NCBI GenBank assembly: GCA_016932015.1
Contig: JAFGDQ010000019.1
Coordinates: 11,214 to 75,213 of the forward strand
Source: Spirochaetota bacterium
GTDB lineage: Bacteria > Spirochaetota > UBA4802 > JAFGDQ01
Length of the DNA stretch: 64,000 bases
Direction of reading: 5' to 3'
The notes under the pieces were generated by a model. It had not been told where the DNA came from, did no database searches, and worked only from the letters and a program-made list of their open reading frames with translations. The first letter of the stretch is position 1, and each line of letters begins with the position of its first letter. This document shows positions 25,428 through 40,526 of this stretch, piece after piece. A program made the translations under genes and the position numbers.

Positions 25428-26204
25428 ATGAAAAAAACAGCATATTTACTTATCCTTCTTCTGGCAACGGCTTTATACGCAGAAGATGATAAAAATTATC
25501 TTCTCAGAAAGAAGATACAGGAATCTAAACAGAAAATTGAAAGGCTTAATAAGCTTACAGAAGAAACAGATAAAAGAATAAAAGATTTATCTGAAAGCCA
25601 TGCAAAGAGAATAAAAAAGAGAACGTCAGACATCTCGGAATTAGGTTCTGAAATCAGGGTGCTTGAGAAGGAGCTCAGAAATGCAAAGCTGCAGAACAGT
25701 ACACTGAAAAATTCCGTAAAGGATTTTGAACTTCAGTTCGCGTCATACAGAAACAGCATTGAAAAGAACATGGAGAAATCAAGGCAGTCTATCAGGAATA
25801 ATATTCCATATAATATTGAGGAACGGAACACAAATATTTCCAAGCTTATTTCTGAAACGGAATTTGAAAGCATTACTCCTGAAGAAATATTCAACCGTTA
25901 CTATAATTTTCTTAACCGTGAACTGGCTACGGGGATGGACTCTGAGGTTTATTCCAAAGGCAATATCAAATACCTGAGAATAGGCTGGATACTGCTGTGC
26001 TATTCGGATGATCAGGGCAAGGAAGCGGGTATTTTAGTGAAAAAGAATAATAAATGGGAATGGAAAACGGATATTGATTTTTCAACAAGAAAAGCAATAA
26101 GAGATTCAATTAAGATGGTGGAAGGAAAGAAAGCACCTGATCTTATGGAGTTTCCTGTTCCGCTCTCCCTGCTTAAGGAAACTGCGAAAGGAGGCGTAAA
26201 ATGA
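25428..26204 (+). CDS. periplasmic coiled-coil protein, DUF3450-like (TonB-system associated)
   Basis: Signal peptide plus long coiled coil. First gene of a DUF3450-TtpC-ExbB-ExbD-TonB-TPR arrangement. Confidence 0.5.
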   Translation: MKKTAYLLILLLATALYAEDDKNYLLRKKIQESKQKIERLNKLTEETDKRIKDLSESHAKRIKKRTSDISELGSEIRVLEKELRNAKLQNSTLKNSVKDFELQFASYRNSIEKNMEKSRQSIRNNIPYNIEERNTNISKLISETEFESITPEEIFNRYYNFLNRELATGMDSEVYSKGNIKYLRIGWILLCYSDDQGKEAGILVKKNNKWEWKTDIDFSTRKAIRDSIKMVEGKKAPDLMEFPVPLSLLKETAKGGVK

Positions 26205-27634
26205 AAAAGCTGATTGTATGTTTAATAATATTGTTTTCTACACTTCCGTTATTCGCGGATGAGGAAGCTGACCTGAAAAGAGATTATGAAAAAATTGAGA
26301 AAGAACTTGAAATAGCTGAAACAGAATTCTGGAAAAAGAAATACGCACTGATCGAATTAAAGCAGAAGGTGAAAGAAGAAATTGGAGATCTTGAGACCGA
26401 CTACAATGAGCTGATAAAAAACCGCAGTGCGTTGAAAGAGGAAATTCTGAGCATTGAGGTTGATAATAAAAGCCTTGGTGAAAAGAAGGACAATTACAAT
26501 CTAAGGATTTCCGAGATCTATTCAATATATCTTAAGTCTCTGGATGAGCTGACTTTATTTGCAAAGAGGAACGGCCCGTTCACACAGCAGAAGGATTTAC
26601 TTATACTTCAGGATATAAGAAACGGCGTTGAGAAAAAACAGGGGATTATTAAAAGCGGAGAGGAGCTTATAGACTTTCTTAATTCAAAGATTGAAGATTC
26701 AAGAGAATGTACTGTCGTTCATTCAGATATTATTACTAAAGACAGGTCAGTGGAAAAAGGCAGGAAGCTCCGTCTCGGTTATATCTTTAACGGTTATGTT
26801 ACAGATTCCGGAAATCATGCGGGGATGGTACTGCGTACAGGTAAAATCACACAGAATGCTTTTGCATGGCATGAAGATTTGTCGTCATCTCAGGCGGATA
26901 TGATAAAAGATACGGTGTTTGGAATAAGCAGCAATAAGGAAATAGCTTTCCTGCCTCTTGACGTTATGCAGTCAAAGGCCGTAGGTAAGACGTATGCCAC
27001 AAAAGGATCTTTCATTAAAGAAATTGCGGAATGGTTTAAGTCCGGCGGTATTGTTATGTATGCTATTGTCTTTGTACTTGCATATGCGATTTTTATAATG
27101 ATAAACAGAATTATAGTATTCAGAAAAAACAGAGGCGATGCTTCATGTTTAATGGAATCTCTTCAGGATCTGATTGAGAAGAAGGATTTTGACGTTGCTG
27201 TTCAGCTTTGTGAATCAGAGAACAGCCCGCTTACGCGTCTGATGAAAGAAATTCTTAAAGACAGAAAACTGTCGCGTGAAGACGTGGAGCTTAAGATTCA
27301 GGAGATTATTCTACATGAGATTCCCGTAATTGAGAAGCATCTTCCCACCCTGAAGAGTCTCGGCGCCCTGGCTCCGCTTCTCGGGCTTCTGGGAACCGTA
27401 ACAGGAATGATTTCGCTTTTCGATGTTATTACCGTTTTCGGTACCGGCGATCCGAAGCTTCTGGCAGGAGGAATTGCAGAGGCTCTTGTTACAACAGAAT
27501 TCGGACTTATTGTTGCCATTCCGTCAGTGCTGTTTCACAGGGTACTTTTGAATTACGCGGAAAAGATAATAAACGATCTTGAAAGATTCAGCCTTACAGT
27601 TCTAAATACAGGCTGGAACAGCAAAAAGAATTAA
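26201..27634 (+). CDS. MotA/TolQ/ExbB family proton-channel protein with long N-terminal periplasmic coiled-coil (TtpC-like)
   Basis: Signal peptide, ~270-aa coiled-coil region, then a 3-TM ExbB core (LGLLGTVTGMI, GIAEALVTTEFGLIVAIP). Confidence 0.75.
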   Translation: MKKLIVCLIILFSTLPLFADEEADLKRDYEKIEKELEIAETEFWKKKYALIELKQKVKEEIGDLETDYNELIKNRSALKEEILSIEVDNKSLGEKKDNYNLRISEIYSIYLKSLDELTLFAKRNGPFTQQKDLLILQDIRNGVEKKQGIIKSGEELIDFLNSKIEDSRECTVVHSDIITKDRSVEKGRKLRLGYIFNGYVTDSGNHAGMVLRTGKITQNAFAWHEDLSSSQADMIKDTVFGISSNKEIAFLPLDVMQSKAVGKTYATKGSFIKEIAEWFKSGGIVMYAIVFVLAYAIFIMINRIIVFRKNRGDASCLMESLQDLIEKKDFDVAVQLCESENSPLTRLMKEILKDRKLSREDVELKIQEIILHEIPVIEKHLPTLKSLGALAPLLGLLGTVTGMISLFDVITVFGTGDPKLLAGGIAEALVTTEFGLIVAIPSVLFHRVLLNYAEKIINDLERFSLTVLNTGWNSKKN

Positions 27635-27635
27635 T

Positions 27636-28238
27636 ATGATAGATCAGATAATTGAAACATTTTTAAGAGCAGGCAATGTAATATATTTTATTTTTCTAAC
27701 CTCTGTTTATGCCTGGTTTTTAATCTTAAGGAAATATTTTCTAATCAGAAATGAATCCAGGCGCAGCAGTGATCTTTTCAGAAAGGTTTTTTCTTATCTA
27801 AGCAGAAAAGACACGTCAAAGCTTAAGCAGTATTTGCAGACGGAAGATAAAATAATTACAGAGTGTATAGACTCTGTCTCTGATTTGAAAGATAAAAATA
27901 ATGTTGAGAGCGCTATTGAGCAGAACAGGCTGTACTATTTCTCCCTGCTTGATAATAATGTAGGAACAATCAACACTCTTGCGGCAATTGCTCCTCTCCT
28001 GGGGCTTCTGGGAACTGTTACGGGAATGATGAAAACTTTCGCTATTATCAGGCTTTTCGGGTCAGCCAATCCCGCGCTGATGGCTGAGGGAATTTCCGAA
28101 GCTTTACTTACCACACAGGCAGGACTGATTGTCGCGTTTCCCATTGTGCTCGCAAATACGTTTTTGAAAAACAGGATAAGGGACCTGAAAGATAATTTTG
28201 AAAAGATTTTTATGAAGATGAGAGGCAATCATGTTTGA
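27636..28238 (+). CDS. exbB: ExbB/TolQ proton-channel protein
   Basis: LGLLGTVTGMM and GISEALLTTQAGLIVAFP motifs. 200 aa. Confidence 0.8.
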   Translation: MIDQIIETFLRAGNVIYFIFLTSVYAWFLILRKYFLIRNESRRSSDLFRKVFSYLSRKDTSKLKQYLQTEDKIITECIDSVSDLKDKNNVESAIEQNRLYYFSLLDNNVGTINTLAAIAPLLGLLGTVTGMMKTFAIIRLFGSANPALMAEGISEALLTTQAGLIVAFPIVLANTFLKNRIRDLKDNFEKIFMKMRGNHV

Positions 28239-28635
28239 TTTCATAAGAAAGAAAGAATCGGATTCCGAAGATATAAATATTTCCCCGCTGATAGATATGG
28301 TATTTATTCTTCTGATATTTTTTGTTGTTACTACGTCATTCTCAAGGGAAACCGGAGTTGAAGTTAACAAGCCCAAGGCTGCCTCATCTCAGACTCTTTC
28401 CCAGGAAAATATTATGATTGCGGTAACTTCGGAAGGCACTTTCCATATTCTTGAAAAGCAGGTGGATTTGAATCAGCTTTCAATGATTGTTAAGCGGCTC
28501 GCGAATGAGAATCCGGACAGGCAGGCTGTTGTTATGGTGGACCGGAACGCGAAAAGCGGTGATGTTGTTGATGTAATAGATGTATGCAATCTTTCAGGCG
28601 TAAAAAAAGTGAACATTGCAGCGATTAAGAAATGA
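28231..28635 (+). CDS. exbD: ExbD/TolR biopolymer transport protein
   Basis: 134 aa with an N-terminal single TM (INISPLIDMVFILLIFFVV), the typical ExbD topology. Confidence 0.8.
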   Translation: MFDFIRKKESDSEDINISPLIDMVFILLIFFVVTTSFSRETGVEVNKPKAASSQTLSQENIMIAVTSEGTFHILEKQVDLNQLSMIVKRLANENPDRQAVVMVDRNAKSGDVVDVIDVCNLSGVKKVNIAAIKK

Positions 28636-29258
28636 AAATAAATTTAAAAAATTACAACTATTTAAATTTCGCAAAATATATTATACTGGCTTTCGGAATA
28701 AGTGTTCTGCTTTTTCTTCTGCTTCCTGTATCTTATTATCTGTTTCATCAGGAGATTTATAAAATGATACAAAGCAAAAAGACATCTGCTGTTAAGGTTG
28801 AGACAATTAAGATTCAGGAAAAAAAGAAGGACATCAAACAGATTGAAAAGCGTGAGAAGACAAAGCTGATTAGACCGCGGACACAGCAGTTTACACGATT
28901 TAATCTTGATCTCTCCGTAATGTCAGGGGAAGGCGGCAGCGGCGGAGTGATGCAGTCCGGATTCGGTACTGTTATTGAAGAAGGCGAAGCTGATGTGCCG
29001 CCTATAAAGCGAATTTTTATTCCTCCGAAATACCCGTCTAGAGCAAGGGAGGAGGATGTTGAAGGTAAGGTCGTTGCCAAGCTCCTGATCGACGAAAACG
29101 GCGATGTTATTTCCGTCAGAATACTGAAGGAACCAAGACACTGGGGTTTCGGAAGCGCGGTAATTGAAGCAGCGCAGAAGTGGAAATTTGAACCGGCAAA
29201 ATTAAACAACCTGCCTGTAAAGGTCTGGGCAACTCAGGTGATAGAATTCAAGCTATGA
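28632..29258 (+). CDS. tonB: TonB-family energy transducer
   Basis: N-terminal TM, Lys/Glu-rich spacer, conserved C-terminal TonB fold (PPKYPSRAREEDVEGKVV...DENGDV). Confidence 0.7.
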   Translation: MKINLKNYNYLNFAKYIILAFGISVLLFLLLPVSYYLFHQEIYKMIQSKKTSAVKVETIKIQEKKKDIKQIEKREKTKLIRPRTQQFTRFNLDLSVMSGEGGSGGVMQSGFGTVIEEGEADVPPIKRIFIPPKYPSRAREEDVEGKVVAKLLIDENGDVISVRILKEPRHWGFGSAVIEAAQKWKFEPAKLNNLPVKVWATQVIEFKL

Positions 29259-30271
29259 AAAAATTACTTATTATCATAATAATATTTGTTTATGCAGGTG
29301 TAACCTTTGCTGAAGACATGGGTGTAGAGTATGTAAAGAGGGCAAACGCCGAATTCCAGAACAAGCGTTTCAGAAAGGCGCTGGAGATATATAACAAAGC
29401 TCTGAAATTCGATGTAAATAAGGCTCTTGTCTATTACAATATCGCGAATGTTTATTATCTTCTGAATCAGCCGTGGGAATCAATTGTATATTATCAGAAG
29501 GTAATTGATCTTGCACCGGATTTTATCAATTCATACCTGAATCTCGCAAAGATCCTGCACAAGATCAGGGAATATGATAAGGCTATTGCAATATTAAAGA
29601 AGGCTATTGAGGTTAAGCCTGACAATGAGGAATGCCTGCTTCTTATTGGCAGCTGCTACATGTCTCTTGAAGTCTTTCCTGAAGCCATATATAATTTTGA
29701 AAAAGCCAGGGAGCTTTATCCTTACAAGCTTACATCATATTACTTTCTGACTGAGGCATATCTTAACCTGAATGATTATGAATCAGCTATTGCACAGATG
29801 GAGCAGGCTGCCGACATATCCCAGGACACGCAGATACTTTCATATCTCGGAGATCTGTATCAGGCTAATGGTAACTATGACAAGGCAATCAATACATTTG
29901 AAAATATAATTGATGTGAAAAAGAAAGACGAGGCTGCCTATTACAGGCTTGCCGAATCATACCTTGCCAATGACCAGAAATTTATGGCTATTGATACTCT
30001 TCAGAGAGCGATTGAAAATATTCCGGAATATATTGATGCTTATATTTTACTTGGAAATATTTATTTTGATAATTCATTTTATGAGGACGCTGAAAAGGTA
30101 TTTTTTAAAGCCGCAGGTATTAATTCTCAAAAAGTAAGGGTTTATATTAAGAACCTTGCTATCACTTATTATAATGAAAAGGATGAAGATAAGCTCCGCT
30201 CTCTTTATATGAAAGCCCTTAAAATTGACCCTTCACTTGCAGGTATTATGAGAGAGCTTATAAAAATATAG
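29255..30271 (+). CDS. TPR-repeat protein (TonB-cluster associated)
   Basis: Signal peptide plus at least 7 TPR-like repeats (W-LG-Y...A...F..A....P). Confidence 0.75.
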   Translation: MKKLLIIIIIFVYAGVTFAEDMGVEYVKRANAEFQNKRFRKALEIYNKALKFDVNKALVYYNIANVYYLLNQPWESIVYYQKVIDLAPDFINSYLNLAKILHKIREYDKAIAILKKAIEVKPDNEECLLLIGSCYMSLEVFPEAIYNFEKARELYPYKLTSYYFLTEAYLNLNDYESAIAQMEQAADISQDTQILSYLGDLYQANGNYDKAINTFENIIDVKKKDEAAYYRLAESYLANDQKFMAIDTLQRAIENIPEYIDAYILLGNIYFDNSFYEDAEKVFFKAAGINSQKVRVYIKNLAITYYNEKDEDKLRSLYMKALKIDPSLAGIMRELIKI

Positions 30272-30393: not shown

Positions 30394-31152
30394 ATGAAAA
30401 ACAGAATATTATGTGCACTGCTGTTTATTGCACTTATTTCCTTTGCCGGCTGTAATGCCAGGCAGTATTTACTTACTGATTTTGTAAATCTGGACAAATC
30501 TTATGTTCCTGCGCTTTTCCTGACGAATAAAGAAAAGTCTGATCCTTCAAAGAAAGCTGTCGGAAGGCTGATAACAGAATGGGTTTCCTTTAAAGGAAAA
30601 TATTATGATTTTAATAAGGATGATGAGCAATGGAGCAGGGATTTTGACACTGTTGAACAAAGCATAAGGGCCGCGGAAAAGATTGTCTCTTCTAACGGAG
30701 ACCTTATTGAAGCTTATGAAATTCTTAAGAATGTAAGGCATACTTTTATTAAAACAAGAAGAAGGAATAATATTGAATATTACATCGATTATCTGACCGA
30801 TTTTCATAGTCCGATGGATCATATTACAGCACAGGTTATGGGAAAAAAACCTGAAGCGCTTACAGGTAAAAATATTGATGAAATAAAAGAGGCTTTGCCT
30901 GAGGCAAAAAGACTTTGGGAAGCATTAAAAAATGCTGAATTTGATGAAGACCTGTTCGTTTTTAACAAAGATAAAGTTAAAGAGATGCAGAAGCTTGTTC
31001 TGGCAGTGACTAAGAATCTGGAAGAACTGGAAAGCGCGGTTAAAAGCAAACCGGATAAAGCCAAGATAATAGAACTATCGTTAAGTACGGGAGAAAGTTT
31101 TTCTTTTTTCTTTATGCTGTTCGGTAATTTTCACGGACTTGGAAAGATATAA
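30394..31152 (+). CDS. lipoprotein of unknown function
   Basis: Lipobox ISFAGC at residues 15-20. Confidence 0.5.
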   Translation: MKNRILCALLFIALISFAGCNARQYLLTDFVNLDKSYVPALFLTNKEKSDPSKKAVGRLITEWVSFKGKYYDFNKDDEQWSRDFDTVEQSIRAAEKIVSSNGDLIEAYEILKNVRHTFIKTRRRNNIEYYIDYLTDFHSPMDHITAQVMGKKPEALTGKNIDEIKEALPEAKRLWEALKNAEFDEDLFVFNKDKVKEMQKLVLAVTKNLEELESAVKSKPDKAKIIELSLSTGESFSFFFMLFGNFHGLGKI

Positions 31153-31476: not shown

Positions 31477-32289
31477 TTAAATATTAAACGAGGACGGCCT
31501 TGCTATCTGGTATTTATTGAAAAGCATCTCTGTTCTGGTTACTATGTCTGTCTGGAAATCTTTTTCATACTGAACATCAAGCACATATGCTTTTGCTGTT
31601 AATTTTACAGCTATACGCTCCGCGAATGCTGTCTCTGCAAGGACGATTTTAACGGGTTTTTTAAGAAACACAAATTTGCTGGTAACAACTACCTCATACA
31701 GCAGCTCTTTGGCTTTTGCAATATCAGCGTTAAGCCCTACATGGAAGTCTGTAACTACCATCATGTGAAGAGCACCGGCGTTTCCGCTGCTTACGATATC
31801 AGTAAAAAATTTTGAGTTCGGTATTGTAACGATGTCGTCACTAAGCGTATTGATTCTGACAGCTCTTAATCCAATAGAGATTATTTCCCCGTAAACATCA
31901 TTGAATTTTACCCTGTCGCCTACCTGGAAGGGCCTGTCAAAAAGCAGTACAATTCCTGCAAACAGCGACCCTACAAGGTCTTTTAGCGAAAAACCAATGG
32001 CGACAGCTGCACTTCCTCCGAGTGCAAAAAGCAGTTCTTTCGGCGGGTCAAGAATAACATAAAATAGACTGATGCAGCCGGTAATATAAAGAAAGAATGT
32101 AATAATAGTCACAATTTGCAGTATTTGCAAACGATGGTGATGAAATTTAACCTGCAGACGGGAACCCAGTTTCTGAATGAGTTTTACTATACCTACAAGA
32201 ATAGCAAGTGAAATCACCAGAAGAAATATTCTGTCGAGTTGTATCAGATTTGAAAAATCCTGAAGAGGCTCGATATATTCAGTTGACAT
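31477..32289 (-). CDS. small-conductance mechanosensitive channel (MscS family)
   Basis: 3 TM helices plus a conserved MscS beta-domain (FQVGDRVKFNDVYGEIISIGLRAVRINTLSDDIVTIPNS). Confidence 0.8.
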   Translation of the reverse strand: MSTEYIEPLQDFSNLIQLDRIFLLVISLAILVGIVKLIQKLGSRLQVKFHHHRLQILQIVTIITFFLYITGCISLFYVILDPPKELLFALGGSAAVAIGFSLKDLVGSLFAGIVLLFDRPFQVGDRVKFNDVYGEIISIGLRAVRINTLSDDIVTIPNSKFFTDIVSSGNAGALHMMVVTDFHVGLNADIAKAKELLYEVVVTSKFVFLKKPVKIVLAETAFAERIAVKLTAKAYVLDVQYEKDFQTDIVTRTEMLFNKYQIARPSSFNI

Positions 32290-35200
32290 AGAGTAAATTC
32301 CTTTGTTTCAGATAGTTTACGACGATACTATGACAGGCGGGATTGATTCTGTATCTTCCGTTTTCATCTCTGTACAGAAAGTCGCGTTCAATGCCTATTT
32401 TCAGCGCATATTTTACTATTCCCCTGGGAAAGTCTGTTGTATTTACCAGCTCGGAGCTTGTTATGTTTTCATGTTTTATGATTGACGCATAAATAAAGAA
32501 AGCATCGTTCTGAATATTTTTGAATATATCTGTTTCCGGATCATGCGGGAGTCCCACAACCAGAATATTATTTTTAGGGATAAGGCATGTCAGCCACATA
32601 TAAATAGCAGCTCTTGGATTTCCTTCTGACTGTTCCCATAAAAGTCTGAAAAATCGCTTTTCAATATTGTCCGATGATTCCAGTTCGGAAGACCTTAAAG
32701 TGGCTGAAATAACATTGTCATATCTCAATTTTACATCAGCTGTTACATTTCGTGAATTTATAAGTTTCCTTATGTCTTCCTCATTCCACGGACACATCTC
32801 AATTACATTGCGGAAATATCTGTTCTGGAAAAATACGCCTTCAAGAAAAATCCAGGAGTGAATATTAAAGGAAGCACATATAAACAGATTGTTAAGCCTG
32901 AGGTTAATCAGTTTCACAAGGGTTTTATAACCTGCGAAGCCGCCTACTTCTGAAATAAAAAAGTTATGCGCGTCGTCCAGAAATAATATTGTTCTTGCTG
33001 CATGATTATCCCATTCAATAAGCGACTCAATGTTATTGTTCAGGTTTGTATCAAGCAATTCTTCAAAAAACCGCACTATACCTTCTCCGGTTGTAATTTT
33101 GGGAGGTACAGTCTTTTTTATTATTACTGTCTCCGGATATTCAGAGGATATTTTTACTGAAAGCTGTTCAAAGAGGGATGACTTTCCAATTCCTTTTTCA
33201 CCGTATACCGCGAGACTTATCTCCTCGGTGTTATAATTTATCCATTCTTTAATAATAGTGTAGGCGGTGTTAAAGTCATCAGTATGCGGGTAAATCCATA
33301 TTTCCCTGTTTTTAGGGACACCAAGTGAAAAAAGATTCCTGTACTCCTCAGGTAAGGTGTCAATATCGGTTACCTGGATTTCGGCACCGGCGGCTTCCAT
33401 TTGCCTTCTTAAAATACGTGCGATTGTTTTTTTTGCGAGTTCAAGTTCAAATAAATGTTTTTTTAAGTAGGTAATAATTCTTGTAATTGCAAGGAATATC
33501 AGCAGCGGTAAAATTGTGATTATGGCTGCAGGGCCTTTTGATATTTTTACAATCTTCTGCACAGACGCTAATTTAAAACTGTTTTCGAATGATGTCAGAA
33601 TTTCATTTTTCCACATAATTGCTGTTAAAAGCAGTATCAGAAATGCAGTATAATAAAAAATTTCCCCGGCAATATAATATATATACGCTTTTCCTGCTGA
33701 TCCCTCAACAGCATATAGAACAAGAACTGCGATCAGGAAAAAAAGCCCGATAATTTTACCTGTTTTTTTAATTTTGTTATCATATTTTGATAATGAATAT
33801 ATACTGCTTCTGATGATAATTTTTTTGAATGATCTGTCAAACAGAGTCATTAGAATACGGTATATTATCAGTATCCTGAAATACGGGATTATTTCGGTTA
33901 ACTCATGAATATAGGTATTCTGTATAAAAGAATCAATTATTGTTATGGAGAAATAAATAATTATATACGGCAGGTACGGATTTATATGCGTTAAAAGCTG
34001 TGAAAATTTGATTTTTAATCCGGAAAGTTTTTTAGCATAGATAAGATTGCGCCTGAAATTTTCTATTTGTTTAAGCAGTCTTTTTATCGAGTAGAATAAA
34101 AAGAACGGCACACATATGATTAGAAGAATTAAAAACAGTGATTTTGCAAGATTGAAAAAGCCCGGAAGGCCGGAAGTGAATCCAATCTTGATGTTCTCCC
34201 AGCGGTTAATAAAGAATATGAGTGCACGGTATGGTATTATTTTTATTTCTCTTAAAATATCGGAAAAGAATTGATTATTATATTTTAATATTTCAGAATT
34301 TAATGATCCTTTGTTTTTTGCCTCCATTAATAATAAAAAATATTTTGAACGGATATTGCCTGCATCTTTGATCAGATTGTAATGATATTGTATATACTGC
34401 AGCTGTTTGTCTTTAATGTTAAAGTTTGCAATTTGATTAAGCCTGAGAATTTTTTCGTACAATTCAGCGTACTTTTTTCCCTGGTCCGGTGCTGCGGTCT
34501 CTGCGTCCGGAGAAATTCTGTCCGGGATTGTTATGCCGTCCTTATAGCTGATTCCTGTTGATATGTTTTCTGCCCTGATGCCGAGATCAACAATTTCCCT
34601 CCATAGCGAAATTACCTTTGAGTATTCTTTTTGAACTGCATCGTATGATCCGAAAGTGCTAAGCAGGAGCAGGGAATTGTTGAGTTTATCATTTAAGTTT
34701 TTGAAGTGCAGATATTTTTTTTCATAATGCTGCGCAATATCAATAATTCTGAATGAGAGCCTGATTCTTGTCTTTTCAAGCGCAATTATCCGGTCGTTCA
34801 GAACCCTGACGGACCGGTGAGCGGCAGGCTGCCTGGCGGTAATGCTTTTTATGGATTCTACCGCGTCGTACTGATCAGTTAAAGCATCTTTCTGTTCCTT
34901 TCTTAACTGATCAATTATTGTGTCCGATTTTGATATCTGATTGGTAAAATTAATAAGGACTTTTCTCTGTTCAGGCGAAAGGGTAAGTAAATGGCTTTCC
35001 AGTTTTAATATATCGTGATGAAGTGATTGCAGTTTATTGAACAGAGAATCGAAATCTGATTTTCTGTCCGCACATTGAGGGTATTCTTTTTTAAAAACAA
35101 GATCCGGATTATTTTGTATTGCTTCAAAATAATTCTCTACAGCTTTTTCATTATCTATATCAAAACTGAAATATTTACCTGTGTCAAATTTCCCTGTAAA

Positions 35201-35386
35201 AGTTCCGTGAAGTAGGCTGTCGAGCTCCTGTTTTTTTATTTCATACTCTTCAATTCTTGTCCTGAGAAGGTCCTCAATGATTTTTTTATCACATAATTCA
35301 TCCGGTTCTGCTGAAAGGACGGAATTCAGCGGCATAAAAATGAATAGTATAGAAATTATAATTTTTACTGCTTTTAGCGGTTTCAT
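32279..35386 (-). CDS. large membrane protein: signal peptide + periplasmic coiled-coil domain + ~6 TM helices + cytoplasmic P-loop NTPase domain
   Basis: 1035 aa. Walker A (GEKGIGKSSL) and Walker B (ILFLDDAH) lie in the C-terminal third. The N-terminal two-thirds are architecturally like the periplasmic/TM region of MscK-type channels, but no MscS core is present. 11-nt overlap with the downstream MscS gene. Confidence 0.55.
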   Translation of the reverse strand: MKPLKAVKIIISILFIFMPLNSVLSAEPDELCDKKIIEDLLRTRIEEYEIKKQELDSLLHGTFTGKFDTGKYFSFDIDNEKAVENYFEAIQNNPDLVFKKEYPQCADRKSDFDSLFNKLQSLHHDILKLESHLLTLSPEQRKVLINFTNQISKSDTIIDQLRKEQKDALTDQYDAVESIKSITARQPAAHRSVRVLNDRIIALEKTRIRLSFRIIDIAQHYEKKYLHFKNLNDKLNNSLLLLSTFGSYDAVQKEYSKVISLWREIVDLGIRAENISTGISYKDGITIPDRISPDAETAAPDQGKKYAELYEKILRLNQIANFNIKDKQLQYIQYHYNLIKDAGNIRSKYFLLLMEAKNKGSLNSEILKYNNQFFSDILREIKIIPYRALIFFINRWENIKIGFTSGLPGFFNLAKSLFLILLIICVPFFLFYSIKRLLKQIENFRRNLIYAKKLSGLKIKFSQLLTHINPYLPYIIIYFSITIIDSFIQNTYIHELTEIIPYFRILIIYRILMTLFDRSFKKIIIRSSIYSLSKYDNKIKKTGKIIGLFFLIAVLVLYAVEGSAGKAYIYYIAGEIFYYTAFLILLLTAIMWKNEILTSFENSFKLASVQKIVKISKGPAAIITILPLLIFLAITRIITYLKKHLFELELAKKTIARILRRQMEAAGAEIQVTDIDTLPEEYRNLFSLGVPKNREIWIYPHTDDFNTAYTIIKEWINYNTEEISLAVYGEKGIGKSSLFEQLSVKISSEYPETVIIKKTVPPKITTGEGIVRFFEELLDTNLNNNIESLIEWDNHAARTILFLDDAHNFFISEVGGFAGYKTLVKLINLRLNNLFICASFNIHSWIFLEGVFFQNRYFRNVIEMCPWNEEDIRKLINSRNVTADVKLRYDNVISATLRSSELESSDNIEKRFFRLLWEQSEGNPRAAIYMWLTCLIPKNNILVVGLPHDPETDIFKNIQNDAFFIYASIIKHENITSSELVNTTDFPRGIVKYALKIGIERDFLYRDENGRYRINPACHSIVVNYLKQRNLLYVN

Positions 35387-35510
35387 TTAATTTTTATATT
35401 ACGTAAATGGTAAAATAATCACTATATAATTTAACCGTAATATTATAAATATCAATCTATTTTTTTATGAGAGTCTTCTGAATTCTATTTTAAGGGGAAG
35501 GATGTGAATC

Positions 35511-35546
35511 ATGAAAATTCCGAAAAATCCTGCCAGCTGCTTATAA
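35511..35546 (+). other. candidate leader micro-ORF (MKIPKNPASCL) upstream of membrane-protein gene
   Basis: Good RBS (AAGGGGAAGGA, 8 nt) before the ATG. The ORF overlaps the left arm of an alternative hairpin system that ends in an intrinsic terminator. Confidence 0.25.
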
Positions 35547-35558
35547 GAAAGGCAGGCC

Positions 35559-35583
35559 AGGAGCCCGTCCATACTCCTTTTTT
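35559..35583 (+). terminator. intrinsic terminator in the leader of the 35703 gene (candidate attenuator)
   Basis: AGGAG/CTCCT stem, 10-nt loop, then TTTTTT. The preceding CCTGCC (35529-35534) can pair with either GGCAGG (35551-35556) or CCAGGA (35557-35562). The second pairing overlaps the terminator's left arm. Confidence 0.4.
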
Positions 35584-35702
35584 AAGTATCTTTAATATTT
35601 TATTAGACTAAAAAGGAAAGCACTTAAAATTGCGCTTGATCAAATAGAATTCTTAAAGGAAACAGACATAAATAACGATTTTAATTCCGGAGTTAACAAA
35701 TA

Positions 35703-37692: not shown

Positions 37693-38409
37693 TTGAGATT
37701 TAAACGAATACTACTAACTTTTTTCGTTGGAGCAATTATTGTAAGCTGCGGCTCTCCAAAATCGGAACTGGACAAATCATGCATGGCAAATAAGGAGATT
37801 AAAAATTTTCTGCTGAATGCGGATGAAAAGACGGGCTCATCCGGGCAGATTATTATAATTACCAGCTCAAGCGATAATCCGGAATACGTGAATTTATATA
37901 CTGTAGAAAAGAATAACGGAACATGGCATGAGAAATTTGGAAAGATAAAGGCGACAATAGGTAAAAACGGATTTGCGGACAAAGGAATGAAGAAAGAAGG
38001 CGACGGCAAAACTCCGTCAGGAGTTTTTAAGCTTGGAACAGCTTTCGGATATAGTGAGAAAATCAATACAAAACTTCCTTACAGGCAGTCTACGGAAAAT
38101 GATTTCTGGATTGATGATGTAAACTCGGATAAATATAATACATGGGTAAGCGGAAAGCCTGAAGCAAAATCTTTTGAAAGAATGAAAAGAAAAGATCATT
38201 TATATAAATACGGTATTGTCGTTGAGTACAATACTGATCCTGTGGTGAAAGGAAAGGGAAGCGCAATCTTTCTGCATGTATGGAGAGCCCCCGGTAAAAA
38301 AACTGCAGGATGCGCTGCAATGGATGAAAACGATATTTTGAAAATTCTGGAGTGGCTCGATCCTGAAAAAGAACCATTGGTCATGATGGGGAATTCATTG
38401 AAAGTATAA
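37693..38409 (+). CDS. L,D-transpeptidase (YkuD fold) lipoprotein
   Basis: Lipobox (IVSC). Catalytic motif ...GSAIFLHVW....TAGCAAM (His...Cys). Confidence 0.8.
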   Translation: MRFKRILLTFFVGAIIVSCGSPKSELDKSCMANKEIKNFLLNADEKTGSSGQIIIITSSSDNPEYVNLYTVEKNNGTWHEKFGKIKATIGKNGFADKGMKKEGDGKTPSGVFKLGTAFGYSEKINTKLPYRQSTENDFWIDDVNSDKYNTWVSGKPEAKSFERMKRKDHLYKYGIVVEYNTDPVVKGKGSAIFLHVWRAPGKKTAGCAAMDENDILKILEWLDPEKEPLVMMGNSLKV

Positions 38410-38498
38410 TTATCATTTTTTTTCATCTGCACACAATAGATGTAATTATTAACAAAATTATCTTACTATTAAGGTAGAATAACCAGACAAGGAGCTAT

Positions 38499-39827
38499 GT
38501 GATGAAACATATCACAATTATTTTTGCTTTTTTACTTTTTTTAACTTCAGGGATAAGCAGTTTATCCGCAGCTGATAAAACAGTTAAACTGGTTGCCCAG
38601 GGCGAGAAGTTTCCCGAGGTTGAGCTGATTGTCAATGTAAGGGACAAGGCATCAGGTACAGGTGTATACGGCTTGGCCAAATCCGGTTTTCAGATTCTGG
38701 AAGGCGGCAGTAAACAGGAGATAACCTCCTTTGTCCCGAAAGGCGAAGGCAAGGTTGACGCTATAGACATTGTTTTTGTTTTTGATGAAACAGGAAGCAT
38801 GCAGGATGAGATCAATGCTGTCCGTGATAATTCAATGCTGTTCGCTGATATCCTTAAAGCGTCTAATATGGATTACAGGGTTGCACTTGTAACCTTCAGT
38901 GACAAGGTTGAGAAGGTAAAGGATTTTACAAAAAATATTGATGAGTTCAAATCATGGCTTTCCGCAATAAGGGCATACGGCGGAGGGGATGATCCTGAAA
39001 ATGATCTTGATGCAATTGCAAGAGCAATGGAATTGAAATTCAGAAGCGGCGCGAAAGTTGTGTTTATATTAATTACAGACGCTCCTTATCATCAGGGTGA
39101 TTCCGTAACAAAGAGATATATGCTTCCTCTTGCAAAGAAACTTAAACTCGAAGATATTAAAGTTTATCCGATTGCCATAAAGCTTGATCAGTATATCTGG
39201 ATGGCGAGGGAAACAGGCGGACAGTATTTTGATATTCTCGGGGATTTCTCGTCAATGATCGAGGAGATCGCTACTGTACTTACAGCGCAGTATACAATAA
39301 AGTACGTACCTTCAAATTCCTCTTTTGATAATACATGGCGCAGTGTTGAAGTAAAGATTGACGGAATCGGATCTGCAAAAAATAAATATAAGTCAGCTTC
39401 AAATATTGTTGCCTCTTCACAGCTGATTGAAAAGTACAGGCCTTCAGACGCATATAAACCGGCCAATATCGCGGACGGGAACAAGCTAACAGCATGGAGC
39501 GAAGGAGAGAGCGGAAATGGTATTGGCGAATGGATCCGGTTCGGTTTTGATACGCCCAAAAATTTAAAGGCGATTAAAATCATCGCGGGTTATACGAAGA
39601 CTGATAGGATTTATAAGGCAAATAACCGCGTTAAAAAACTGAAGATAATTTTTTCCAACGGCAAATCGCAGACTGCTGAGTTAAAGGATGTACAGGATTT
39701 TCAGCGTATACTTATTGACAGAGACACTCCTACAAAATTTGTAAAGCTTGAAATTATGGATGTTTACCGCGGAGCGAAGTACAAAGATACATGTATCTCA
39801 GAAGTCGAGTTTGAATATAAGGACTAA
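38499..39827 (+). CDS. secreted von Willebrand factor A protein with C-terminal discoidin/F5-8-type-C-like domain
   Basis: Signal peptide. MIDAS motif DETGSM...(T)...D in the vWA core. C-terminal ...NIADGNKLTAWSEG....GEWIRFGF... jelly-roll pattern. Confidence 0.7.
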   Translation: MMKHITIIFAFLLFLTSGISSLSAADKTVKLVAQGEKFPEVELIVNVRDKASGTGVYGLAKSGFQILEGGSKQEITSFVPKGEGKVDAIDIVFVFDETGSMQDEINAVRDNSMLFADILKASNMDYRVALVTFSDKVEKVKDFTKNIDEFKSWLSAIRAYGGGDDPENDLDAIARAMELKFRSGAKVVFILITDAPYHQGDSVTKRYMLPLAKKLKLEDIKVYPIAIKLDQYIWMARETGGQYFDILGDFSSMIEEIATVLTAQYTIKYVPSNSSFDNTWRSVEVKIDGIGSAKNKYKSASNIVASSQLIEKYRPSDAYKPANIADGNKLTAWSEGESGNGIGEWIRFGFDTPKNLKAIKIIAGYTKTDRIYKANNRVKKLKIIFSNGKSQTAELKDVQDFQRILIDRDTPTKFVKLEIMDVYRGAKYKDTCISEVEFEYKD

Positions 39828-39842
39828 GCAGGCTGCAATTAG

Positions 39843-40526
39843 ATGAAGATAAATTATTTTAAATTATTAATTCTAAGCGCTGCAGTTTTTTCTTTTTCAG
39901 TAGTTCTTTCAGCTGATGAAAAACCGGTTATTGAAAAGGAATTACTTGAGAAAGGGCTTGTGGATATTCAGTCAATTGATGCATCCATCAAAGTTGATCT
40001 GAAGTATTCATCTAAAGATAATTTTCTGGGAGAGGACGCATACGGGGATATGGCTAACTGCTATCTTGTCAAAGAGGTCGCAATAAAACTCGCTGATGCG
40101 CAGAAAATACTCGGGAAAATTCATCCGGGATACAGCCTTATTGTCTATGACGGGGTTCGCCCCCGCCGTATACAGTACAGGATGTGGGAGATTGTAAAGG
40201 GAACGGACAAGCAGAAGTATGTGGCTGATCCGAAGTCCGGTTCAATTCATAATTACGGCTGTGCTGTTGATCTTTCCATTCTAGATGAGAACGGAAAGGT
40301 GCTGGATATGGGCACGGAATTTGACTATTTCGGAGACCTGGCTCAGCCCCGTTATGAAGTCAAATTTCTGAAAGAAGGAAAACTGACTCAGAAGCAGGTC
40401 GATAACAGAAAACTGCTGCGCAAGGTAATGGAGCAGGCAGGTTTCGGATGGATACTGAGTGAATGGTGGCATTTTAACGGGTACCAGAAAAAGTATGTCA
40501 AAGAGCATTACAGGATTATTGAATAA
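39843..40526 (+). CDS. secreted M15-family D-Ala-D-Ala dipeptidase (VanX-like)
   Basis: Signal peptide. Zinc-binding/catalytic pattern (SIHNYGCAVDLS, EWWHF). Confidence 0.75.
   Translation: MKINYFKLLILSAAVFSFSVVLSADEKPVIEKELLEKGLVDIQSIDASIKVDLKYSSKDNFLGEDAYGDMANCYLVKEVAIKLADAQKILGKIHPGYSLIVYDGVRPRRIQYRMWEIVKGTDKQKYVADPKSGSIHNYGCAVDLSILDENGKVLDMGTEFDYFGDLAQPRYEVKFLKEGKLTQKQVDNRKLLRKVMEQAGFGWILSEWWHFNGYQKKYVKEHYRIIE

What the first reader, a model, noticed from the sequence alone, without database searches (positions are those of the whole stretch)
31477..35386. Membrane P-loop NTPase with MscK-like periplasmic/TM architecture, translationally coupled to a stand-alone MscS channel
The 1035-aa protein has a signal peptide, a ~350-aa periplasmic coiled-coil domain and ~6 TM helices. 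That layout is like the N-terminal two-thirds of MscK/KefA. Where MscK carries its MscS pore domain, this protein has a cytoplasmic Walker A/B NTPase domain (GEKGIGKSSL / ILFLDDAH). The MscS pore is encoded separately in the next gene, overlapping by 11 nt. This looks like a split MscK in which an ATPase has been inserted. An NTP-regulated mechanosensitive channel assembly is not something I recognise as described.
Basis: inference. Interest (0 to 1): 0.55.

Follow-up and report, generated by a model that had tools for sequence, protein, structure and literature searches.

The report
Membrane AAA+ ATPase paired with MscS channel
A large envelope-spanning ATPase gene and a small mechanosensitive-channel gene overlap here and are always found together in about 150 other bacterial loci, which points to an undescribed ATPase-partnered pressure-release channel; the proposed kinship with MscK does not hold up.

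Summary
Both ORFs are real. The large one is 32279-35386(-), 1035 aa. The MscS-family one is 31477-32289(-), 270 aa. They overlap by 11 nt.

The large protein has a signal peptide, an all-helical periplasmic domain of about 385 aa with a conserved Cys pair, 4-6 hydrophobic helices, and a cytoplasmic AAA+ ATPase with a lid and winged helix. The best fold matches of the ATPase part are Orc1/Cdc6.

The pairing is obligate in both directions:
- Starting from the ATPase, 79 of 79 genome loci with downstream sequence carry the MscS gene next.
- Starting from the MscS, 65 of 65 metagenome loci with upstream sequence carry the ATPase.
- 112 of 128 junctions overlap by 4-14 nt.
- The pairing persists in a subfamily whose N-terminus is instead a Na+/H+ exchanger domain, followed by MscS, TrkH and TrkA.

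The "split MscK" homology is not supported by HMM, hhalign, Pfam/NCBIfam or Foldseek. The resemblance is one of layout only.

Public annotations say only "AAA family ATPase", and I found no paper on the pair. My best reading is a dedicated channel complex in which an envelope-sensing nucleotide switch controls a private MscS pore. That step is inferred, not shown. I rate it a new variant of a known kind.

The parts
32279..35386 (-). Gene for the 1035-aa envelope-spanning AAA+ ATPase (stop codon 32279-32281)
   Evidence: ORF. Identical to NCBI 'hypothetical protein JW864_02995, Spirochaetes bacterium'. 1982 relatives found. AF2 model has pLDDT 86.5.
35309..35386 (-). Residues 1-26: signal peptide or signal anchor (MKPLKAVK + hydrophobic core + NSVLSA)
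   Evidence: Hydropathy peak at residues 6-24. The peak is conserved in the family. pLDDT is low at residues 18-30. Cleavage has not been tested.
34157..35308 (-). Residues 27-410: all-helical periplasmic domain. Contains near-invariant Cys32/Cys105, invariant W262, R346, E380 and P385, and a juxtamembrane amphipathic helix at 371-404
   Evidence: DSSP of the models. Conservation. No significant fold neighbour; the best, non-significant, are the TorS and PilJ sensor bundles. Encoded as a separate ORF in Pseudobacteriovorax.
33437..34156 (-). Residues 411-650: membrane domain. Strong TM helices at 407-450 and 621-647, moderate at 532-564 and 568-591, marginal at 456-488 and 500-526
   Evidence: Hydropathy and insertion-energy estimates for the window protein and the family. 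Helices from the AF2 models. The parity of spans is unresolved.
32552..33271 (-). Residues 706-945: AAA+ NTPase core plus lid. Walker A GEKGIGKS 729-736 (33179-33202), Walker B ILFLDDAH 800-807 (32966-32989), sensor-1 N841, R879-H880, and a GNPR sensor-2-like motif at 922-925 (32612-32623)
   Evidence: Pfam AAA_22 matches 46 of 46 family members at E<=1, best 6.3e-15; the window copy scores 23.6 bits, below the cut-off of 27. Foldseek top hits are Orc1/Cdc6 2qby_A at 5e-7, plus 1fnn and 2v1u. Invariant G732, G734, K735, D804. Motif positions.
32282..32551 (-). Residues 946-1035: C-terminal winged-helix domain. Invariant H972 (K/R-H-E-N), conserved GRYR wing at 1010-1013, conserved C-terminal KNFIY-like tail
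   Evidence: Secondary structure runs H960-972, H977-984, H988-1000, E1004-1006, E1012-1014, H1016-1028. Alignments to Orc1/Cdc6 and NLRs are about 370-570 columns long, longer than the AAA+ core alone. Conservation.
32279..32289 (-). 11-nt overlap of the ATPase stop codon with the MscS start codon (ATGTCAACTGA)
   Evidence: Read from the sequence. The same arrangement is found in 112 of 128 related loci: 8 nt in 83, 11 nt in 25, 14 nt in 3, 4 nt in 1.
31477..32289 (-). Gene for the 270-aa MscS-family channel. TM1 residues 21-39, TM2 61-80, pore helix TM3 86-127 (31909-32034), beta domain 128-180, C-terminal alpha/beta domain 181-270
   Evidence: Pfam PF00924 at 1.5e-20. PDB MscS 3t9n at 2e-13, also YnaI and MscK 7uw5. 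Alignment with E. coli MscS and 75 partners. Clade alignment A4.
35387..35702 (.). Intergenic region shared with the divergent DUF401 gene; probable promoter region of the two-gene operon
   Evidence: Flanking genes are on the opposite strand on both sides. Weak sigma-70-like matches on the - strand at 35455-35426. These are consensus matches only.

Best explanation
The two genes form a dedicated two-component channel system.

The small gene makes a complete MscS-type pore. By family precedent it is a heptamer, with a hydrophobic gate and a cytoplasmic vestibule.

The large gene makes its private partner. This protein spans the envelope. It has a helical periplasmic domain that is probably disulfide-stabilised, a multi-helix membrane domain, and a cytoplasmic Orc1/Cdc6-like AAA+ module with a lid and a winged helix. 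The Walker B motif is hhhhDD, which is typical of switch-type rather than motor-type AAA+/STAND proteins.

I propose the following. The two proteins are made in near-equal amounts through translational coupling and assemble in the membrane. The partner's membrane helices contact the unusually conserved TM1-TM2 loop and TM2 of the channel. The nucleotide state of the AAA+ module (ATP versus ADP, and its oligomeric state), set partly by a signal received in the periplasm, controls when the MscS pore can open, or whether it is active at all. The system would then be a conditional release valve for osmotic or ion homeostasis.

Shown here: the domain anatomy, the fold classes, and the obligate, overlapping and phylogenetically broad gene pairing.

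Inferred: physical contact, the direction of control, nucleotide dependence, and the physiological role.
For: 1. Pairing from the ATPase side. In 81 loci, 75 have a close homologue of the window MscS directly downstream on the same strand (phmmer E 1e-78 to 1e-99). The other four with room have it too and were missed only because the longest-ORF start or a frameshift misplaced the junction. Two loci end too early to tell.

2. Pairing from the MscS side. 65 of 65 metagenome loci with at least 300 bp upstream carry the ATPase-WHD gene directly upstream.

3. The stop/start overlap is conserved in 112 of 128 junctions.

4. No third conserved neighbour exists, so this is a two-gene module.

5. The link is independent of the N-terminal module. 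A subfamily carries a Na_H_Exchanger domain, a long coiled coil and the same ATPase-WHD. It is again followed by MscS, then TrkH and TrkA, in two contigs that are 65-70% identical. A 1138-aa form (P0088) and a short or split form (P0151) also keep the downstream MscS. So does the split arrangement in Pseudobacteriovorax.

6. The channel partner is much more conserved than the ATPase protein: median 51% identity to the window copy against about 27%. The conservation includes the TM1-TM2 loop and TM2, with invariant R53, Q58, T61, F65, Y68, G71 and P82. That is what a protein-protein interface within the membrane would predict.

7. The channel looks functional. It has a canonical TM3/RPF segment and beta domain. 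The residues at the two E. coli gate positions are hydrophobic (V and F).

8. The ATPase is intact. Walker A Lys735 and Walker B Asp804 are invariant, and N841, R879 and the GNPR motif are conserved. Its fold matches Orc1/Cdc6, ORC subunits, plant NLRs and TnsC heptamers.

9. The context is ordinary chromosome, not a mobile or defence context. No PADLOC hit reaches significance. No relative was found in viral contigs.
Against: - There is no direct evidence of contact. No fused (Rosetta-stone) protein appears among the 120 MscS homologues listed or the 150 ATPase homologues listed. No complex prediction could be run.
- The direction of control is a guess.
- The winged helix has a conserved basic wing (GRYR), which would equally suit DNA binding.
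- The membrane topology does not yet close. Four or six spans would put the ATPase on the wrong side of the membrane.
- The window protein's own AAA_22 score is below Pfam's cut-off.
- Operon linkage can also reflect a shared pathway without a complex.
Confidence: 0.5

Rival explanations
1. Assembly or placement factor. The AAA+ membrane protein is needed only to insert, oligomerise or position the MscS heptamer, for example at a particular envelope site read by the periplasmic domain. This would resemble the way the membrane AAA_22 ATPase ExeA/GspA helps assemble the type II secretin. It would not regulate gating afterwards.
For: The ATPase belongs to the AAA_22-like group. By my own knowledge, that group includes ExeA/GspA, a membrane-anchored ATPase with a periplasmic domain. 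The obligate pairing and translational coupling fit a dedicated chaperone equally well.
Against: Other MscS-family channels assemble without helpers (established knowledge). The near 1:1 arrangement suggested by the overlap is more typical of stoichiometric subunits than of a catalytic helper. The strong conservation of the channel's TM2 suggests a lasting interface.
Confidence: 0.15
2. Signalling in the other direction. The channel, or membrane tension or ion flux through it, is the input. The AAA+ winged-helix module is the output, for instance a membrane-tethered DNA-binding or effector-recruiting switch.
For: The closest folds are Orc1/Cdc6 initiators, which bind DNA through the same C-terminal winged helix. 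The wing motif GRYR and part of the recognition helix are conserved.
Against: No conserved target gene or third component lies nearby. The variant subfamily sits among ion transporters (CPA fusion, TrkH/TrkA), not regulator targets. Tethering through several membrane helices plus a large periplasmic domain is unusual for a DNA-binding AAA+ protein.
Confidence: 0.12
3. Conflict (defence) system. A STAND-like sensor NTPase activates a membrane channel effector that depolarises or drains the cell on infection or attack.
For: Sub-threshold hits to nSTAND6, nSTAND3, NACHT and NB-ARC occur in 13-19 of 46 family members. Plant NLRs appear among the fold matches. Three members give weak hits to an NCBIfam anti-phage P-loop model.
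Against: PADLOC gave only two hits, both non-significant (E 0.008-0.015). No relatives were found in viral contigs. Window neighbours are housekeeping genes. There are no recurrent defence neighbours in 81 loci. The protein lacks the C-terminal sensor repeats that define STAND proteins, since it ends after the WHD. The module is widely present across Bdellovibrionota lineages, which looks like vertical inheritance.
Confidence: 0.07
4. Split MscK. The large protein descends from the N-terminal two-thirds of an MscK/MscM-type channel, whose pore part has become a separate gene and which then acquired an ATPase.
For: The gross layout is the same: a signal peptide, a long helical periplasmic domain and several TM helices, with an MscS pore domain following in the operon. 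The window MscS matches the pore part of MscK at 7e-12, but it matches plain MscS and YnaI as well or better.
Against: - Family HMM against E. coli MscK scores -29 bits.
- hhalign probability is 0.4%.
- The NCBIfam MscK and MscM models do not hit the large protein.
- No MscK N-terminal Pfam family is detected.
- Foldseek with a confident N-terminal model gives no hit at E<=1e-3, and no MscK or MscM among the 50 matches listed.
- By my own knowledge, MscK has an even number (8) of helices before its pore domain and so ends outside. This protein must end inside.
- The pairing persists with a completely different N-terminus.
Confidence: 0.05
5. Co-transcribed but functionally independent genes.
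For: Operons can join unrelated membrane proteins. No interaction data exist.
Against: Strict reciprocity holds in about 144 loci across several phyla. The junction overlap is conserved. Every other neighbour is lost while the pair is kept.
Confidence: 0.05

Closest known systems
MscS-family small-conductance mechanosensitive channels (E. coli MscS/YggB, T. tengcongensis MscS, YnaI)
   Same: The 270-aa protein has the three-TM layout and a Gly/Ala-rich TM3 pore helix followed by RPF. It also has the beta domain (Pfam PF00924) and a C-terminal alpha/beta domain, and is of similar length.
   Different: It is only 16% identical to E. coli MscS. It belongs to a tight clade (40-62% identity to the window copy) with its own signature motifs: KFPSRRLLILQIVT in the TM1-TM2 loop and TM2, KD at the TM3 kink, and SGNxGALDMM. 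In the 65 clade loci with readable upstream sequence, the channel gene always sits behind an AAA+ membrane protein gene.
MscK (KefA) and MscM (YjeP), the large MscS paralogues of E. coli
   Same: The pair taken together has the same overall layout: signal peptide, long helical periplasmic domain, extra TM helices, then an MscS pore. MscK gating depends on an extra input, external K+ (established knowledge).
   Different: No sequence, profile or fold similarity to the N-terminal parts was detected. The system is two polypeptides rather than one. A cytoplasmic AAA+-WHD module is present that MscK lacks. The required TM parity also differs.
Orc1/Cdc6 replication initiators and the wider AAA_22 / initiator-clamp-loader AAA+ group (DnaA, TnsC, MuB, TniB, ExeA/GspA)
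   Same: The domain order is AAA+ core, lid, then C-terminal winged helix. Walker A is GxxGxGKS and Walker B is hhhhDD, with a sensor-1 Asn. There is a 'DIxxLIxxRH' helix and a 'GNPRxAxxLW' motif. From my memory of the family these resemble the Cdc6 motifs 'ELxxILxxR' and 'GDxRxAxxLL'. The best Foldseek hits are 2qby_A, 7tji_I, 7jgr_A, 2v1u_A and 1fnn_A.
   Different: This protein is anchored in the membrane behind a large periplasmic domain and linked to a channel gene rather than to replication or transposition genes. No sequence-level hit to any solved initiator was found. No curated NCBIfam or Pfam family covers it.
STAND NTPases (NB-ARC, NACHT, nSTAND families)
   Same: It has the NTPase-lid-WHD order and a DD-type Walker B. 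Sub-threshold Pfam hits occur in a third or more of family members. NLR resistosomes appear among the fold matches.
   Different: There is no C-terminal repeat or sensor domain, because the protein ends at the WHD. Instead the putative sensor is N-terminal and periplasmic. It has no defence context.
Nucleotide-regulated cation transport regulators (TrkA/KtrA RCK-KTN domains on TrkH/KtrB; Kef systems)
   Same: The concept is shared: a cytoplasmic nucleotide-binding module attached to, or encoded next to, an ion pathway. The variant subfamily is fused to a CPA-type exchanger domain and sits next to trkH-trkA.
   Different: The fold is unrelated (AAA+ rather than Rossmann-type RCK). This is an analogy of logic only, and is untested here.

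Membership tests
MscS family (270-aa protein) | MS_channel beta-domain profile match above the curated threshold | tested here: met
   PF00924 scores 73.5 bits against a cut-off of 20.2, E 1.5e-20.
MscS family (270-aa protein) | Pore-lining TM3 (Gly/Ala-rich TM3a, kink, TM3b ending in RPF) preceded by two TM helices | tested here: met
   The alignment with E. coli MscS reads LLFALGGSAAVAIGFSLKDLVGSLFAGIVLLFDRPF. The residues at the E. coli gate positions L105 and L109 are V and F. TM1 is at 21-39 and TM2 at 61-80.
MscS family (270-aa protein) | Heptameric assembly and tension-gated conductance | not testable with these tools
   Needs purification or cryo-EM, and patch clamp.
MscK/MscM-type large channels (1035-aa protein as their N-terminal part) | Sequence or profile similarity to the MscK/MscM periplasmic and extra-TM regions | tested here: not met
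   NCBIfam NF008438 (MscK) and NF008180 (MscM) do not hit the large protein at E<=1. Family HMM against E. coli MscK scores -29 bits. hhalign probability is 0.4%. No MscK N-terminal Pfam family appears for the window protein or among the top 25 families of 46 members.
MscK/MscM-type large channels (1035-aa protein as their N-terminal part) | Fold similarity to solved MscK (7uw5/7ux1) or MscM structures | tested here: not met
   The model of residues 1-660 (pLDDT 88.2, pTM 0.79) gave no Foldseek hits at E<=1e-3 against PDB. MscK and MscM are not among the 50 matches listed. Caveat: helical membrane bundles are hard for Foldseek, and the periplasmic part of MscK may be poorly modelled in the deposited entries.
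MscK/MscM-type large channels (1035-aa protein as their N-terminal part) | Pore domain covalently joined to the N-terminal module | tested here: not met
   The pore is a separate ORF here and in all related loci examined. No fusion is seen among the homologues listed.
AAA+ ATPases of the AAA_22 / Orc1-Cdc6-like group | Walker A GxxxxGK[ST] and Walker B hhhhD[DE], conserved in the family | tested here: met
   GEKGIGKS at 729-736 and ILFLDDAH at 800-807. G732, G734, K735 and D804 are invariant in 50 sequences.
AAA+ ATPases of the AAA_22 / Orc1-Cdc6-like group | Profile match to PF13401 (AAA_22) above the gathering score | tested here: inconclusive
   The window protein scores 23.6 bits, below the cut-off of 27. 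All 46 family members scanned match AAA_22 at E<=1, best 6.3e-15, and several exceed the cut-off, for example P0124 at 47.9 bits.
AAA+ ATPases of the AAA_22 / Orc1-Cdc6-like group | alpha/beta core plus helical lid plus C-terminal winged helix fold | tested here: met
   Foldseek against PDB gives 2qby_A at 5.2e-7 (TM-score 0.54 normalised to the target), plus 7tji_I, 7jgr_A, 2v1u_A and 1fnn_A. Seventy matches have E<=1e-3, and all 50 that were listed are P-loop NTPases: AAA+ proteins and STAND/NLR proteins.
AAA+ ATPases of the AAA_22 / Orc1-Cdc6-like group | ATP binding and hydrolysis, and nucleotide-dependent oligomerisation | not testable with these tools
   Needs biochemistry.
STAND NTPases | NTPase-lid-WHD followed by a C-terminal sensor or repeat domain | tested here: not met
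   The protein ends 90 residues after the lid, at the WHD. NB-ARC, NACHT and nSTAND hits are all sub-threshold and occur in 13-19 of 46 members.
Known anti-phage defence systems | Match to a PADLOC model, or phage or defence-island context | tested here: not met
   PADLOC gave nothing significant: E 0.008-0.015 for the large protein and no hits for the small one. No relatives in viral contigs. Neighbours are housekeeping genes.

The most novel reading that the evidence does not exclude
The AAA+ modules form a nucleotide-dependent ring, plausibly sevenfold to match the MscS heptamer. The ring docks on or around the channel, so that opening of a mechanosensitive pore needs a second input as well as tension: an energy signal (ATP/ADP) and/or a periplasmic signal. 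This would be the first ATPase-gated member of the mechanosensitive channel superfamily, and a new job for an Orc1/Cdc6-like switch.
Probability: 0.3. Interest if true: 0.8.

Novelty: new variant of a known kind. Interest (0 to 1): 0.62.

Why it matters
MscS-type channels are textbook examples of proteins gated directly by membrane tension. Their known modulators are fused domains (the MscK periplasmic domain, cyclic-nucleotide domains, EF hands). A separate, obligately co-encoded AAA+ partner would add a new control layer, making solute release depend on nucleotide state or an envelope signal.

It would also give the initiator-type AAA+ fold a membrane-transport role.

The module is common. 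The ATPase protein has about 2000 clusters at 50% identity (phmmer hits at E<=0.001, so some may share only the ATPase domain), and the channel clade has at least 2467 clusters at 90% identity. It is prominent in predatory Bdellovibrionota and in iron- and sulfur-oxidising Betaproteobacteria, yet it is annotated only as "AAA family ATPase" plus "mechanosensitive ion channel".

It can be tested directly with standard MscS assays in E. coli channel-deletion strains.

Tried and rejected
1. The word-indexed protein search with the large protein found only itself and one distant relative. With the ATPase-domain alignment it found only 7. The family became visible only in the exhaustive HMMER search.

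2. The MscK relationship was tested five ways and rejected.

3. Sequence searches of both halves of the large protein against PDB returned only P-loop or coiled-coil noise.

4. NCBIfam has no curated family for it. The best match is the sub-threshold 'Sll1717 P-loop ATPase' model, hit by 11 of 14 members.

5. A defence or phage origin was considered and set aside.

6. I looked for a conserved third gene and found none.

7. I looked for natural ATPase-MscS fusions among the listed hits and found none. Only the best 120 and 150 hits were visible, so this is weak negative evidence.

8. I looked for a clean cultured model. In Sulfuricella denitrificans skB26 the upstream gene appears as four fragments in the assembly seen. 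Pseudobacteriovorax antillogorgiicola has a natural split into three ORFs. Bacteriovorax sp. BSW11_IV has an intact pair (L029).

9. Seven literature searches found nothing on the pairing. The one Bdellovibrionota paper that mentions mscS only reports its enrichment in marine genomes (PMC8067016).

10. The promoter and terminator scan is uninformative in this AT-rich region.

11. The TM topology could not be closed from sequence alone.

Full report
**Observation**

The window holds two overlapping ORFs on the minus strand. The large one is 32279..35386, 1035 aa. The small one is 31477..32289, 270 aa. The ATG of the small ORF lies 11 nt before the end of the large one (…CTCT**ATG**TCAAC**TGA**…). 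On both sides the neighbours are on the opposite strand: a DUF401 membrane protein upstream and an unassigned 252-aa ORF downstream. The pair therefore stands alone as a two-gene unit. Both products exist verbatim in NCBI for a Spirochaetes MAG, named "hypothetical protein" and "mechanosensitive ion channel".

**The small protein**

It is a bona fide MscS-family channel.
- It matches Pfam PF00924 at 73.5 bits against a cut-off of 20.2.
- It matches several NCBIfam MscS, MscK and MscM models through their pore parts.
- It matches solved MscS (3t9n, 2e-13), YnaI and the pore part of MscK (7uw5, 7e-12).

Aligned with E. coli MscS (fetched), it has two outer TM helices. It also has the Gly/Ala-rich TM3a, a kink, and TM3b ending in RPF, followed by the beta and alpha/beta domains. 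The residues at the two E. coli gate positions are hydrophobic (V and F). Overall identity to E. coli MscS is only 16%.

**The large protein**

Hydropathy and a confident AlphaFold2 model built on 50 homologues (pLDDT 86.5) give this layout:
- an N-terminal signal-like segment, residues 6-24
- an all-helical domain, residues ~27-410, with very long helices
- hydrophobic helices between residues 407 and 647
- a linker
- an alpha/beta P-loop domain from about residue 720
- a helical lid
- a C-terminal winged helix, residues 946-1035

Walker A is GEKGIGKS at 729-736, and Walker B is ILFLDDAH at 800-807. G732, G734, K735 and D804 are invariant across the family, as are W262, R346, E380 and P385 on the periplasmic side. 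Cys105 is near-invariant in both full-length alignments, and Cys32 in the 50-sequence one, as expected for a periplasmic disulfide.

Foldseek of the whole model against PDB returns Orc1/Cdc6 initiators first: 2qby_A at 5e-7, then 7tji_I, 7jgr_A, 2v1u_A and 1fnn_A. ORC subunits, plant NLRs, RuvB, RFC, TnsC heptamers, DnaA and MuB follow.

At sequence level the window protein reaches only a sub-threshold AAA_22 score of 23.6 bits against a cut-off of 27. All 46 family members scanned match AAA_22 at E<=1 (best 6.3e-15), and several exceed the cut-off. No curated NCBIfam model covers it, and no PADLOC model reaches significance.

From my own knowledge of the family, two motifs resemble the Cdc6 motifs "ELxxILxxR" and "GDxRxAxxLL" (sensor 2). 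They are "DIxxLIxxRH" and "GNPRxAxxLW". The DD-type Walker B is typical of switch-like AAA+/STAND proteins. This is a reading of motifs, not a test.

**Is it a family?**

The word-indexed search saw almost nothing. The exhaustive HMMER search found 1982 cluster representatives at E<=1e-3, 1220 at E<=1e-10 and 384 at E<=1e-30. Many are full length (about 1000-1080 aa) at 23-39% identity.

A pattern scan of one genome per species returned 104 relatives. The 80 loci kept are mostly Bdellovibrionota: Bdellovibrio, Bacteriovorax, Halobacteriovorax, Oligoflexia and Pseudobdellovibrionaceae. Others are Gallionella, Sideroxydans, Thiobacillus, Chromatiaceae and Deferrimicrobiaceae.

**The gene pair is obligate**

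- *From the ATPase side.* In the 81 loci then held, 75 have a close homologue of the window MscS (phmmer E 1e-78 to 1e-99) directly downstream on the same strand. Four more have it too. They were scored as non-adjacent only because the longest-ORF start reaches upstream or the gene is frameshifted. Two loci end before the position.
- *From the MscS side.* A metagenome scan with an alignment of the partner channels returned 80 loci at 40-62% identity. In all 65 with at least 300 bp upstream, the ATPase-WHD gene lies directly upstream on the same strand.
- *The junction.* Of 128 junctions that could be read, 83 overlap by 8 nt, 25 by 11 nt, 3 by 14 nt and 1 by 4 nt. Most of the rest are within 14 nt.
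- *No third gene.* Clustering every other ORF in the 81 loci found no further conserved neighbour.
- *Relative conservation.* The channel partner is far better conserved than the ATPase protein, at a median 51% identity to the window copy against about 27%. This includes the TM1-TM2 loop and TM2, which carry seven invariant residues. I read that as a sign of a protein contact within the membrane. This is an inference.

**The link does not depend on the N-terminal module**

- The one distant hit of the first search (P0002, 1496 aa) has a Na+/H+ exchanger domain, about 700 residues of coiled coil, and then the same ATPase-WHD. Its gene is followed by an MscS gene, then trkH and trkA.
- A second contig carries the same arrangement at 65-70% identity.
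- A 1138-aa form (P0088) and a 476-aa form (P0151) are each followed by an overlapping MscS gene.
- In Pseudobacteriovorax antillogorgiicola the periplasmic domain is a separate 294-aa ORF. It overlaps the 641-aa membrane-ATPase ORF by 4 nt, and MscS follows. The same split appears in an independent assembly.

The invariant core is therefore the membrane-tethered ATPase-WHD plus MscS.

**The MscK idea**

- The family HMM against MscK scores -29 bits, and BLASTP finds nothing below E=1.
- hhalign of the 46-sequence profile against MscK gives a probability of 0.4%.
- The NCBIfam MscK and MscM models do not hit the large protein.
- No MscK N-terminal Pfam family appears for the window protein, or among the 25 most frequent families over 46 members.
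- A separate, confident model of residues 1-660 (pLDDT 88.2, pTM 0.79) has no PDB neighbour at E<=1e-3. Its best, non-significant, neighbours are the TorS and PilJ periplasmic sensor bundles and BAR domains. MscK and MscM are not among the 50 matches listed.

Topology also differs. By my own knowledge MscK has eight helices before its pore part and so ends outside, whereas this protein must end inside. The resemblance is one of layout. Homology is not supported, although fold search on helical membrane bundles is not very sensitive.

**Unresolved: topology**

Two helices are strongly hydrophobic (407-450 and 621-647), two are moderate (532-564 and 568-591) and two are marginal (456-488 and 500-526). 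The last of these carries a conserved Arg.

The split Pseudobacteriovorax protein and the K/R-rich loop after TM1 fix TM1 as running from outside to inside. An even number of further spans is then needed, but the sequence suggests three or five. One helix must be interfacial or re-entrant. The model coordinates, which the tools do not expose, or reporter fusions would settle this.

**Mechanism**

*Shown:* the anatomy, the fold classes, intact catalytic motifs, a complete channel, and an obligate, overlapping, phylogenetically broad two-gene module in ordinary chromosomal context. It has no phage or defence signal.

*Inferred:* the two proteins form a complex, and the AAA+ switch, informed by the periplasmic domain, controls gating or activity of its private MscS pore. 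The placement of the variant subfamily among K+ and cation transporters points to ion or osmotic homeostasis.

I put 0.5 on this reading. Five rivals remain, with the confidence I give each:
- an assembly-only factor, analogous to ExeA (0.15)
- reverse signalling to a DNA-binding winged helix (0.12)
- a conflict system (0.07)
- a true split MscK (0.05)
- mere co-transcription (0.05)

**Novelty**

Public names for family members are only "AAA family ATPase", "hypothetical protein" and "mechanosensitive ion channel". Seven full-text searches found no paper on the pairing.

Both parts belong to known kinds, but their obligate partnership is not described. I rate it a new variant of a known kind, with interest 0.62. 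The most novel reading not excluded is an ATPase-gated mechanosensitive channel with matched ring symmetry (probability about 0.3).

Noticed in passing
L166:4120-7740 (Pseudobacteriovorax antillogorgiicola SLZT01000002.1); also L167: Here the family protein is naturally split. A 294-aa ORF matches the periplasmic domain (family HMM positions 149-390, E 1e-29). It overlaps a 641-aa membrane-AAA+-WHD ORF by 4 nt, and the MscS gene follows with a 14-nt overlap. The same split is seen in an independent assembly.
   Followed up: partly
L001:6760-15993 and L168:1-6759: A variant subfamily has a Na_H_Exchanger domain, about 700 aa of coiled coil, and the same ATPase-WHD. It is followed by a longer MscS (344-346 aa, with a signal peptide and an N-terminal extension), then TrkH and TrkA. 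In L001 a second stand-alone Na_H_Exchanger gene lies just upstream.
   Followed up: partly
L169:2746-7833 (Sulfuricella denitrificans skB26, AP013066.1): The partner MscS is present, but the upstream large gene is called as four fragments (70, 683, 96 and 212 aa). A neighbouring ammonium transporter is also split, which suggests frameshift errors in this assembly version or pseudogenes. A second MscS gene (315 aa) follows the first.
   Followed up: no
window 26201-30271 (+): A TonB-type energy-transduction cluster. It has an unusually long ExbB (477 aa: signal peptide, about 300 aa of coiled-coil N-terminal extension, then MotA_ExbB). A second ExbB (200 aa), ExbD, TonB_C and a 338-aa TPR-like protein follow, all with overlapping or abutting ORFs.
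   Followed up: partly
window 37693-40526 (+): A run of cell-wall-related genes: a YkuD L,D-transpeptidase, a secreted VWA protein with a C-terminal NADase_transloc / F5_8 type C domain (442 aa), and a VanX-like M15 D-Ala-D-Ala dipeptidase.
   Followed up: no
window 20065-23211 (-): A 1048-aa hybrid histidine kinase with several PAS domains, HisKA, HATPase_c and a receiver domain.
   Followed up: no
window 30394-31152 (+): A 252-aa ORF with a lipoprotein-like N-terminus (…ISFAGC) and no Pfam match, convergent with the MscS gene.
   Followed up: no
L055 ('Sulfitobacter sp.' MAG) and L066 ('Flavobacteriaceae' MAG): Both carry the pair. L055 has gene coordinates nearly identical to the Halobacteriovorax locus L036. 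The taxonomic labels therefore probably reflect binning contamination rather than real occurrence in those taxa.
   Followed up: no
window 32282-32300 and the C-termini of family members: The last residues of the large protein (consensus KNFIYxx, with near-invariant N1030 and invariant L1026) are conserved. They are encoded by the DNA immediately upstream of, and overlapping, the MscS start. The conservation may therefore partly reflect ribosome-binding or coupling constraints rather than protein function.
   Followed up: no
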